The notes below the pieces were generated by a model. That model saw nothing but the letters and a program-made list of their open reading frames with translations. It ran no database searches and had not been told where the DNA came from. A DNA stretch of 64,000 bases, taken from Candidatus Sulfomarinibacteraceae bacterium. GTDB taxonomy: Bacteria > Acidobacteriota > Thermoanaerobaculia > Thermoanaerobaculales > Sulfomarinibacteraceae. The stretch covers positions 96,001 through 160,000 of the forward strand of contig CAWCLO010000010.1 of the NCBI GenBank assembly GCA_963796455.1, given 5' to 3'. Positions within the stretch are counted from its first letter, which is position 1; the number at the start of each line of letters is the position of its first letter. Position numbers and translations under genes: made by a program. Shown here one piece after another: positions 41,854-42,335 of this stretch.

Positions 41854-42138
41854 ATGAAGCTCTTGATGATCATCGTCGACTCCGAATGCCGTGAAGAGGT
41901 CGAGATATTGTTCCAGCGCAACGGAGTCACCGGCTACTCGGAGCTCCCCGGCGCCCACGGTGTTGGCACGACAGGCGTTCGCATGGGCTCCGGCGCCTTT
42001 CCCAAGACCTCATCGATTTTCTTCACGGTGGTCGAGCCGGACCAGGTCGTGCCGCTCAAAGAAGCACTGTGTTCCCACTGCGACGCCAGCGAACGCAAAA
42101 TGCGGATGATTCAATGGGCCGTCGAAGAGGTCGTTTGA
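41854..42138 (+). CDS. PII-like (GlnB-fold) transporter-associated protein
   Basis: MKLLMII...GVTGYS....G.G..G pattern. Confidence 0.7.
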   Translation: MKLLMIIVDSECREEVEILFQRNGVTGYSELPGAHGVGTTGVRMGSGAFPKTSSIFFTVVEPDQVVPLKEALCSHCDASERKMRMIQWAVEEVV

Positions 42139-42335
42139 TGAGTGATTTTGCCTATCTGGTGGTGTTCGTCATCGCATGGCTGCTGCTGCAGCGGGTTATC
42201 CTCCCGAAGTTCGGGGTGCCCACCTGAGCCGTCCCCAACCCCGGGCCGGGAGCCCGGGAATGTGCCGCTCCGACCGTGGATGGCGACAAAAAAACGCCGT
42301 CATCTGAAGATGACGGCGCGAACAAAACTGAATAA
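42138..42335 (+). CDS. Uncalled small TM protein, possibly a selenoprotein (29 aa to UGA 42225-42227; 65 aa with read-through)
   Basis: TGATG-coupled start. MSDFAYLVVFVIAWLLLQRVILPKFGVPT-TGA, then an open frame with a Cys to TAA 42335. SECIS-like hairpin follows the UGA. Confidence 0.6.

What the first reader, a model, noticed from the sequence alone, without database searches (positions are those of the whole stretch)
42138..42335. Candidate new selenoprotein: TM micropeptide ending the RND efflux operon
Seen: an ORF missed by the track and coupled to the PII-like gene (TGATG). It reads MSDFAYLVVFVIAWLLLQRVILPKFGVPT-UGA-AVPNPGPGARECAAPT...TE-stop. A 7-bp hairpin CCCGGGC-CGGGA-GCCCGGG has its loop starting 19 nt after the UGA. 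The peroxiredoxin UGA in this window has a matching hairpin with loop CGTGA at 21 nt. selD is present. Inference: a 65-aa membrane-anchored Sec/Cys peptide acting with a TolC-RND-DUF2892-PII module, perhaps in redox, sulfur or metal handling.
Basis: partly seen in the sequence, partly recalled or inferred. Interest (0 to 1): 0.8.

Follow-up and report, generated by a model that had tools for sequence, protein, structure and literature searches.

The report
Overlooked tiny membrane selenoprotein family
A short membrane-peptide gene reads through a conserved UGA codon that is very likely decoded as selenocysteine, which would make it an unlisted family of bacterial selenoproteins, common in one phylum and likely tied to the handling and export of reactive sulfur.

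Summary
Confirmed and strengthened. The ORF 42138-42335 encodes one membrane helix, an in-frame UGA at codon 30 and a 35-residue tail. It matches 55 of 61 close relatives and 94 of 301 genomes of its phylum (Acidobacteriota, inferred). Codon 30 is TGA in 124 of 126 distinct loci and Cys in the other 2, never TAA or TAG. Five genomes carry the Cys form, and selA was not found in four of them. Codons after the UGA vary at third positions as coding DNA does. A G-loop hairpin follows in 115 of 124 members, against 121 of 1,486 ordinary TGA stops. All 94 carriers have Sec machinery. Selenocysteine decoding is therefore very likely (about 0.93), though untested. No Pfam, NCBIfam or PDB family matches, nor by name or motif any of the 119 families in a 2026 inventory. 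The gene is not fixed to this operon. It travels with an RND pump subfamily, YgaP-like and DUF302 genes and, less often, persulfide-handling genes. Best mechanism (inferred, about 0.4): a membrane-tethered Sec/Cys redox arm serving reactive-sulfur export. Caveat: this assembly's only selD has a frame break.

The parts
42138..42335 (+). Gene for the predicted 65-aa membrane selenoprotein
42138..42224 (+). Codons 1-29: predicted membrane helix and the P-x-x-G-x-x-T motif; the 29-aa form that gene callers store
42225..42227 (+). In-frame TGA, predicted selenocysteine 30
42240..42258 (+). SECIS-like hairpin, 7 bp, loop CGGGA starting 19 nt after the UGA
42261..42263 (+). Cys42, the only cysteine; most distant members instead have Cys five residues after the Sec site
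41854..42138 (+). PG0541-family (P-II-like) transporter-associated gene; its stop overlaps the peptide's start
41640..41831 (+). YgaP-like membrane protein (PF11127) with a conserved Cys-Pro
38170..41511 (+). RND permease of a subfamily that co-occurs with the peptide gene; it has no Cys
37100..38173 (+). RND periplasmic adaptor
35667..37103 (+). TolC-type outer membrane channel

Best explanation
The gene encodes a single-helix membrane peptide whose conserved UGA is very likely read as selenocysteine, and which likely acts as a membrane-tethered Sec/Cys redox arm for a reactive-sulfur export module. Shown: the frame, the conserved TGA/Cys codon, coding-type variation after it, the hairpin, the Sec machinery, and the association with the RND subfamily, YgaP-like, DUF302 and persulfide-handling genes. 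Inferred from established SelB biology: SelB binds the hairpin and delivers Sec-tRNA, so the 65-aa form is made when selenium is available and a 29-aa stub otherwise. Inferred from charge bias: the N terminus lies outside and the Sec sits just inside the cytoplasmic face of the inner membrane. Inferred and untested: the Sec, with a nearby Cys (U-x4-C in most distant members), takes up sulfane sulfur or is oxidised by it. It then passes the sulfur or the redox signal to Cys-bearing partners (YgaP-like, DUF302, PG0541) and so feeds or tunes the RND pump. Confidence is about 0.93 for Sec decoding and about 0.4 for this mechanism; the number given is for the whole statement.
For: Codon 30: TGA 124, TGT 1, TGC 1 of 126 distinct loci; 28 TGA and 4 Cys in 32 further loci, some of them repeats. 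Entropy at codon positions 1/2/3 is 0.25/0.07/1.41 bits for codons +1..+5, against 0.45/0.16/1.30 before the UGA. Pairwise codon differences after the UGA are 1941 synonymous to 462 non-synonymous in frame, but 375:2239 and 81:2578 in the shifted frames (40 loci). The tail to the next stop is 15-49 codons in 122 of 122 members with a stop in view, against 466 of 1,486 control stops. Hairpin: 115 of 124, against 121 of 1,486 true TGA stops and 156 of 1,240 shuffles; 4 of 7 pairs show double changes, covariation reached by 0 of 500 shuffles. selA is in 92 of 94 carriers against 229 of 301 overall, and the two exceptions have selB and tRNA-Sec. selA was not found in 4 of 5 Cys-form genomes. Among selA-positive genomes the gene is in 74 of 104 with the RND ortholog and 18 of 125 without, and in 0 of 27 selA-negative genomes with it. 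DUF302 is in 72 of 94 carriers against 64 of 207 others. A core neighbour lies within 8 kb in 28 of 40 diverse loci, against 9 of 308 windows of this genome. These neighbours include persulfide dioxygenase-rhodanese, TauE and YeeE/YedE. RND, TauE, YeeE, pdo and rhodanese are listed together as targets of sulfane-sulfur-sensing repressors (10.1101/2025.02.17.638619, section 16).
Against: There is no experimental or proteomic evidence. This assembly's only selD has a frame break, though it is whole in 4 of 5 congeners searched. 12 of 40 loci have none of the core neighbours. 20 of 94 carriers lack the RND ortholog and 11 lack both it and DUF302, and the pump exists without the peptide. Direct persulfide genes are a minority: dioxygenase-rhodanese 5, TauE 4, YeeE 3 of 40. 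This window's operon has none of them. 25 of 126 members have no Cys in the tail, so a Sec-Cys pair is not required. 12 of the 150 best library proteins have Trp, Gly, Arg, Ser or Ala at the site (their DNA was not seen). The neighbouring ArsR proteins were not shown to be of the BigR/SqrR type. Genomes are kin, so the co-occurrence counts overstate. The hairpin rule and the neighbour list were chosen after seeing the data.
Confidence: 0.4

Rival explanations
1. It is a selenoprotein that works like AcrZ: its helix docks on the RND membrane domain as an accessory subunit, and the Sec is a redox switch on pump activity or specificity, whatever the substrate.
For: Similar size and predicted topology to AcrZ (49 aa, N terminus periplasmic; PMC7267776 passages). 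Q, L-P, G and T at the helix end are strongly conserved. Start overlaps or lies within 3 nt of the PG0541-family stop in 23 of 40 close loci. Genome-level co-occurrence with the RND subfamily.
Against: No sequence match to AcrZ in Pfam, NCBIfam or PDB scans. 20 of 94 carriers lack the RND ortholog. The pump has no Cys to exchange with.
Confidence: 0.25
2. It is a selenoprotein that binds soft metals (Hg, Cu, Ag) at the membrane and hands them to the pump, like MerT- or SO_0444-type selenoproteins.
For: Sec and Cys are soft-metal ligands, and several predicted transporter selenoproteins are linked to metals (PMC13188914 section 7). ArsR and zinc-ribbon genes are frequent neighbours (8 and 9 of 40). 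Two tails carry a CxxC..CxxC motif, and one frame runs on into a zinc-ribbon ORF.
Against: The RND scores below the CusA/CzcA cut-off and no better than against drug-efflux models. No mer, cop or czc gene recurred among the 150 neighbours scanned (150 of about 206 called).
Confidence: 0.15
3. It is a selenium gauge or selenium-disposal part: the ratio of 29-aa stub to Sec-extended form reports selenium supply, and the module exports selenide or selenosulfide species.
For: The stub keeps the whole conserved membrane segment. The tail is unconserved beyond about +10. The gene is almost confined to Sec-using genomes even where the pump is present.
Against: Cys forms persist in genomes where selA was not found, so the thiol chemistry works without selenium. 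No selenium gene recurs next to it.
Confidence: 0.12
4. The UGA is an ordinary stop. The product is a 29-aa membrane peptide, and the conserved downstream stretch is an RNA element.
For: Databases hold mostly the 29-aa form (123 of 150 best hits end at the motif). The single-genome hairpin is not significant.
Against: The codon is never TAA or TAG. Cys codons align to it, variation after it is synonymous in frame, and the TGA form is tied to Sec machinery. TGA ends 1,486 long ORFs in this genome, so it is not generally reassigned.
Confidence: 0.04

Closest known systems
Bacterial SelB-dependent selenoprotein genes (in-frame UGA followed at once by a SECIS hairpin), e.g. the peroxiredoxin at window 29796
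   Same: In-frame UGA, G-loop hairpin about 17-24 nt downstream, Sec/Cys pairs among homologs, dependence on selA/selB/tRNA-Sec.
   Different: No thioredoxin-like or other enzyme fold: one membrane helix plus a short tail of 15-49 residues. The motif is G-x-x-T-U, often followed by x4-C.
Transporter-linked selenoproteins in the 2026 inventory (PMC13188914 Table 1): KCU-star/DUF466 (NF033934), MerT-like, YeeE/YedE, SO_0444 (NF033936), SaoP/SaoC
   Same: Sec in or beside a membrane transport system; sulfur or metal handling proposed.
   Different: No member matched these or any other NCBIfam or Pfam model near its cut-off, and the listed motifs differ. That KCU-star is small and transporter-linked is recalled, not from a call.
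AcrZ (E. coli small-protein partner of the RND pump AcrB)
   Same: About 50 aa, one helix, N-out/C-in (predicted here), associated with an RND pump.
   Different: No sequence similarity found. AcrZ's key proline is mid-helix (P16), whereas here it ends the helix. AcrZ is not known as a selenoprotein (recalled). Binding to the pump is untested here.
YgaP-like membrane domain (PF11127, DUF2892)
   Same: A frequent neighbour. Some members end in G-[IV]-S-T-C (L185, L189), like the peptide's G-[VI]-x-T-U.
   Different: The profile comparison is weak (probability 35% with 12 sequences; 2% and within shuffled controls with 18 sequences). Homology is not supported.

Membership tests
Bacterial selenoprotein gene (SelB/SECIS type) | In-frame UGA conserved across homologs, never TAA/TAG | tested here: met
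   124 TGA and 2 Cys of 126 distinct loci; 28 TGA and 4 Cys of 32 more
Bacterial selenoprotein gene (SelB/SECIS type) | Cys codon at the aligned position in some homologs | tested here: met
   TGC/TGT read from DNA in G358, G359, G513, G447, G382
Bacterial selenoprotein gene (SelB/SECIS type) | Protein-level conservation downstream of the UGA | tested here: met
Bacterial selenoprotein gene (SelB/SECIS type) | SECIS-like hairpin with G in a small loop just 3' of the UGA | tested here: met
   115 of 124 against 121 of 1,486 controls; covariation. My own rule was used; bSECISearch was not available.
Bacterial selenoprotein gene (SelB/SECIS type) | selA, selB and tRNA-Sec in the genome | tested here: met
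   selA in 92 of 94 carriers, the other two have selB and tRNA-Sec
Bacterial selenoprotein gene (SelB/SECIS type) | Intact selD | tested here: inconclusive
   Single copy with a frame break in this assembly; whole in 4 of 5 congeners, not found in the fifth
Bacterial selenoprotein gene (SelB/SECIS type) | Selenium incorporation shown by labelling or mass spectrometry | not testable with these tools
   Needs bench work
Described selenoprotein families (NCBIfam release 20, Pfam) | HMM match at the curated cut-off | tested here: not met
   NCBIfam: 1, 25 and 68 sequences. Pfam: 1 and 68 sequences. Only weak hydrophobic hits, best E 0.005.
AcrZ | Sequence similarity to AcrZ | tested here: not met
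AcrZ | Binds the membrane domain of an RND pump | not tested
YgaP-like TM domain (PF11127) | Helical hairpin with conserved Cys-Pro; profile similarity | tested here: not met
   One helix only; profile score within shuffled range

The most novel reading that the evidence does not exclude
A widespread, hidden class of roughly 50-residue membrane selenoproteins acts as a selenium-dependent accessory subunit of an RND pump for reactive sulfur. Stop versus Sec insertion at one UGA yields two forms of the subunit, so that selenium supply and persulfide load together tune an efflux system. That would put selenocysteine in a small regulatory membrane protein rather than in an enzyme.
Probability: 0.15. 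Interest if true: 0.85.

Novelty: new variant of a known kind. Interest (0 to 1): 0.62.

Why it matters
The family was found in 92 of 229 selA-positive genomes sampled from its phylum. The profile search returned 1,280 representatives at 50% identity (E up to 0.001; only the best 150 were seen, and one of them was unrelated). Databases store it mostly as a truncated 29-aa hypothetical protein, or miss it. It would add a common family with an unusual build (one helix, no enzyme fold) to the roughly 119 listed prokaryotic selenoprotein families. It also gives a chemical handle on an uncharacterised RND/YgaP-like/DUF302/PG0541 module, whose substrate is unknown.

Tried and rejected
The word-indexed protein search with the 65-aa read-through found nothing, and a search for longer or fused forms found none (weak evidence). 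There was no plasmid match and no PDB relative. The ESM Atlas gave only an unnamed 56-aa cluster at 0.85-0.87, a lead. Homology to the YgaP-like domain was rejected as within shuffled controls. Two RNA runs held small shares of the region, and their contigs did not span the gene, so nothing is shown on expression. The complex prediction of peptide with RND was not available, so there is no verdict on binding. The promoter/terminator scan gave nothing beyond chance. General reassignment of UGA was rejected because 1,486 long ORFs of this genome end in TGA. Rows dropped: one spurious pattern hit in L024; L044 and L047-L049, which hold no peptide match; 5 of the 95 matches and 8 of the 38, not fetched; two weak second hits, not examined. 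The first pattern pass over the loci missed several and was redone by profile. Haft and Tolstoy 2025 could not be read. The BSepDB supplement part read lists genomes only.

Full report
Observation. Its ATG (42138) overlaps the stop of a PG0541-family, P-II-like gene. It has TGA at 42225-42227 and ends with TAA at 42335, 65 aa if the TGA is read. The upstream genes are a TolC-type channel, an RND adaptor, an RND permease and a YgaP-like membrane protein. The 7-bp hairpin (42240-42258) has its loop 19 nt after the UGA, but alone it is not unusual: 18 of 200 shuffles fold as well. The peroxiredoxin TGA at 29796 and its hairpin are confirmed. The genome has selA, selB and tRNA-Sec above cut-off. 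Its single selD, in this window, has Cys at the catalytic site and a frame break near 19895-19910. selD is whole in 4 of 5 congeners searched, so an assembly error is likely (inference).

The family. The peptide matched 55 of 61 related genomes. A profile of 25 close members matched 94 of 301 genomes sampled from the phylum, and a wider profile matched 38 of 201 genomes in the class of a named Bryobacterales genome. Identical sequences came up in both samples (L091 and L206), so the phylum is Acidobacteriota (inference). Three unpublished genomes (G083, G108, G205) enter only the denominators of the phylum tallies. Of 132 loci read, 130 have TGA at codon 30, one TGT and one TGC; this is 124 and 2 of 126 after removing repeats. 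Of 32 further loci, 28 have TGA and 4 Cys, a few repeating earlier genomes. None has TAA or TAG. In the protein library 1,280 representatives scored E up to 0.001. Of the best 150, 123 end exactly at the motif, 13 continue with Cys and 12 with Trp, Gly, Arg, Ser or Ala, one was unrelated and one escaped my pattern. The non-Cys residues may be errors or drift from TGA; their DNA was not seen. Invariant residues are P, G, T and the Sec/Cys site. A second Cys follows at +5 in 68 of 126, at other positions in 33, and is absent in 25. The window's clade has replaced the +5 Cys with A-V-P-N-P.

Is the UGA read? Five lines agree. First, codons +1 to +5 vary at third positions like the codons before the UGA (entropy 0.25/0.07/1.41 against 0.45/0.16/1.30). 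Differences are mostly synonymous in this frame and not in the other two (40 loci). Second, the tail runs 15-49 codons in 122 of 122 members with a stop in view, against 466 of 1,486 true TGA stops of this genome. Third, a hairpin of at least 4 pairs and -5 kcal/mol, with G in the first two loop bases, follows in 115 of 124 members, 121 of 1,486 control stops and 156 of 1,240 shuffles. It follows in 23 of 28 further members. I set this rule after seeing the data. In 33 close sequences 4 of 7 pairs show double changes, and 0 of 500 shuffles reach the covariation score (kinship inflates this). In the window the hairpin sits one base nearer the UGA than in congeners and is read in another frame, with the tail's frame restored after it. 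That points to selection on the RNA shape. Fourth, 92 of 94 carriers have selA against 229 of 301 overall, and the two exceptions have selB and tRNA-Sec. The wider profile found nothing in 39 selA-negative genomes of that sample. Fifth, of five Cys-form genomes selA was not found in four (drafts, so absence is not proven), and two of these keep the hairpin, as expected after a recent Sec-to-Cys change.

Structure. AlphaFold2 on the 68-sequence alignment gives one helix over the first 23 residues of the aligned stretch and a low-confidence tail. Mean net charge is -0.8 before the helix and +2.0 after it (131 loci). By the positive-inside rule (established knowledge) this predicts the Sec on the cytoplasmic side.

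Company it keeps. In 40 loci of up to 16 kb, chosen to span families, the neighbours were the RND ortholog 15, YgaP-like 15, DUF302 12, PG0541-like 9, FmdB-type zinc ribbon 9, ArsR 8, ECF sigma 7, Usp 7, persulfide dioxygenase-rhodanese 5, thioredoxin-like 5, TauE 4, YeeE/YedE 3 and OsmC 3. 28 of 40 hold at least one core gene (RND ortholog, YgaP-like, DUF302, TauE, rhodanese, YeeE, BLH), against 9 of 308 windows of this genome; 12 hold none. Among selA-positive genomes the peptide is in 74 of 104 with the RND ortholog (76 with the wider profile) and 18 of 125 without; it is in 0 of 27 selA-negative genomes with the pump. DUF302 is in 72 of 94 carriers and 64 of 207 non-carriers. Kin are not independent. 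A preprint lists RND pumps, TauE, YeeE, pdo and rhodanese together as targets of sulfane-sulfur-sensing ArsR repressors (10.1101/2025.02.17.638619, passages and section 16 read). The ArsR neighbours here have a C-terminal C-x3-C and were not shown to be of that type. PG0541 is listed only as transporter-associated in a TolC-RND operon (PMC12094164, one passage).

Mechanism. Shown: gene, codon, hairpin, machinery and associations. Inferred: SelB-dependent Sec insertion (about 0.93) and topology. Inferred and weaker (about 0.4): the Sec acts as a membrane-tethered nucleophile that takes up or senses sulfane sulfur and relays it to the Cys-bearing small partners of the pump. Rivals are an AcrZ-like pump subunit with a redox switch (0.25), a soft-metal carrier (0.15), a selenium gauge (0.12) and a plain stop (0.04). 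The first two readings are not exclusive.

Comparison and novelty. No member matches an NCBIfam (June 2026) or Pfam model near cut-off, or a PDB chain. Names attached to homologs are 'hypothetical protein' or none. I read parts 1 and 2 of 3 of section 7 of the 2026 inventory PMC13188914, including all of Table 1 (119 families), and saw no family of this name or motif; the table gives no sequences. I saw passages of the Haft and Gwadz preprint, deep-Sep (PMC12013277) and the AcrZ paper (PMC7267776), and the abstract and part 1 of 400 of the supplement of BSepDB. Haft and Tolstoy 2025 was not readable; its families were checked only through that table and NCBIfam. bioRxiv supplements were closed. 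The listings of searches showed no paper on this family. An earlier AI note of this scan (e1-7896768) describes what sounds like the same family in Methylomirabilota. I could not see its sequence, so it is a lead to a wider range, not support. Verdict: a real and very probably new selenoprotein family of unusual build, within the known class of SelB-dependent selenoproteins, with function inferred from context; interest 0.62.

Noticed in passing
window 19005-20040: The only selD of this genome has Cys at its catalytic site and a frame break near 19895-19910; whole in 4 of 5 congeners, so likely an assembly error.
   Followed up: partly
window 29706-30017 (+), TGA at 29796: Peroxiredoxin (AhpC-TSA) with T-x-x-U and a SECIS-like hairpin: a known selenoprotein type that a standard gene caller would split.
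   Followed up: yes
L054:1300-1629 (-), also L033 and L057: In G313 the peptide's frame runs without a stop into an FmdB-type zinc-ribbon ORF; in G054 and G037 the tail itself carries CxxC..CxxC. Possible fusion hints.
   Followed up: partly
L144, L145, L148-L150, L155, L169, L171: Neighbouring ArsR proteins share a C-terminal C-x3-C motif and sit by RND, TauE and rhodanese genes; possibly a distinct sulfur-sensing ArsR subfamily.
   Followed up: no
window 41583-41625: Several tandem copies of a 6-7 nt unit (aaatccg-like) between the RND and YgaP-like genes; RNA-run contigs of other organisms match it.
   Followed up: no
window 42294-42319: An 11-pair hairpin inside the peptide's tail scores as a terminator for the opposite-strand GWxTD gene; one such site is expected by chance in the region scanned.
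   Followed up: no
G000 C1 and C10: ARAGORN lists five 95-nt 'tRNA-Asp(gtc)' calls of equal length, too long for tRNA-Asp; probably a repeated element.
   Followed up: no
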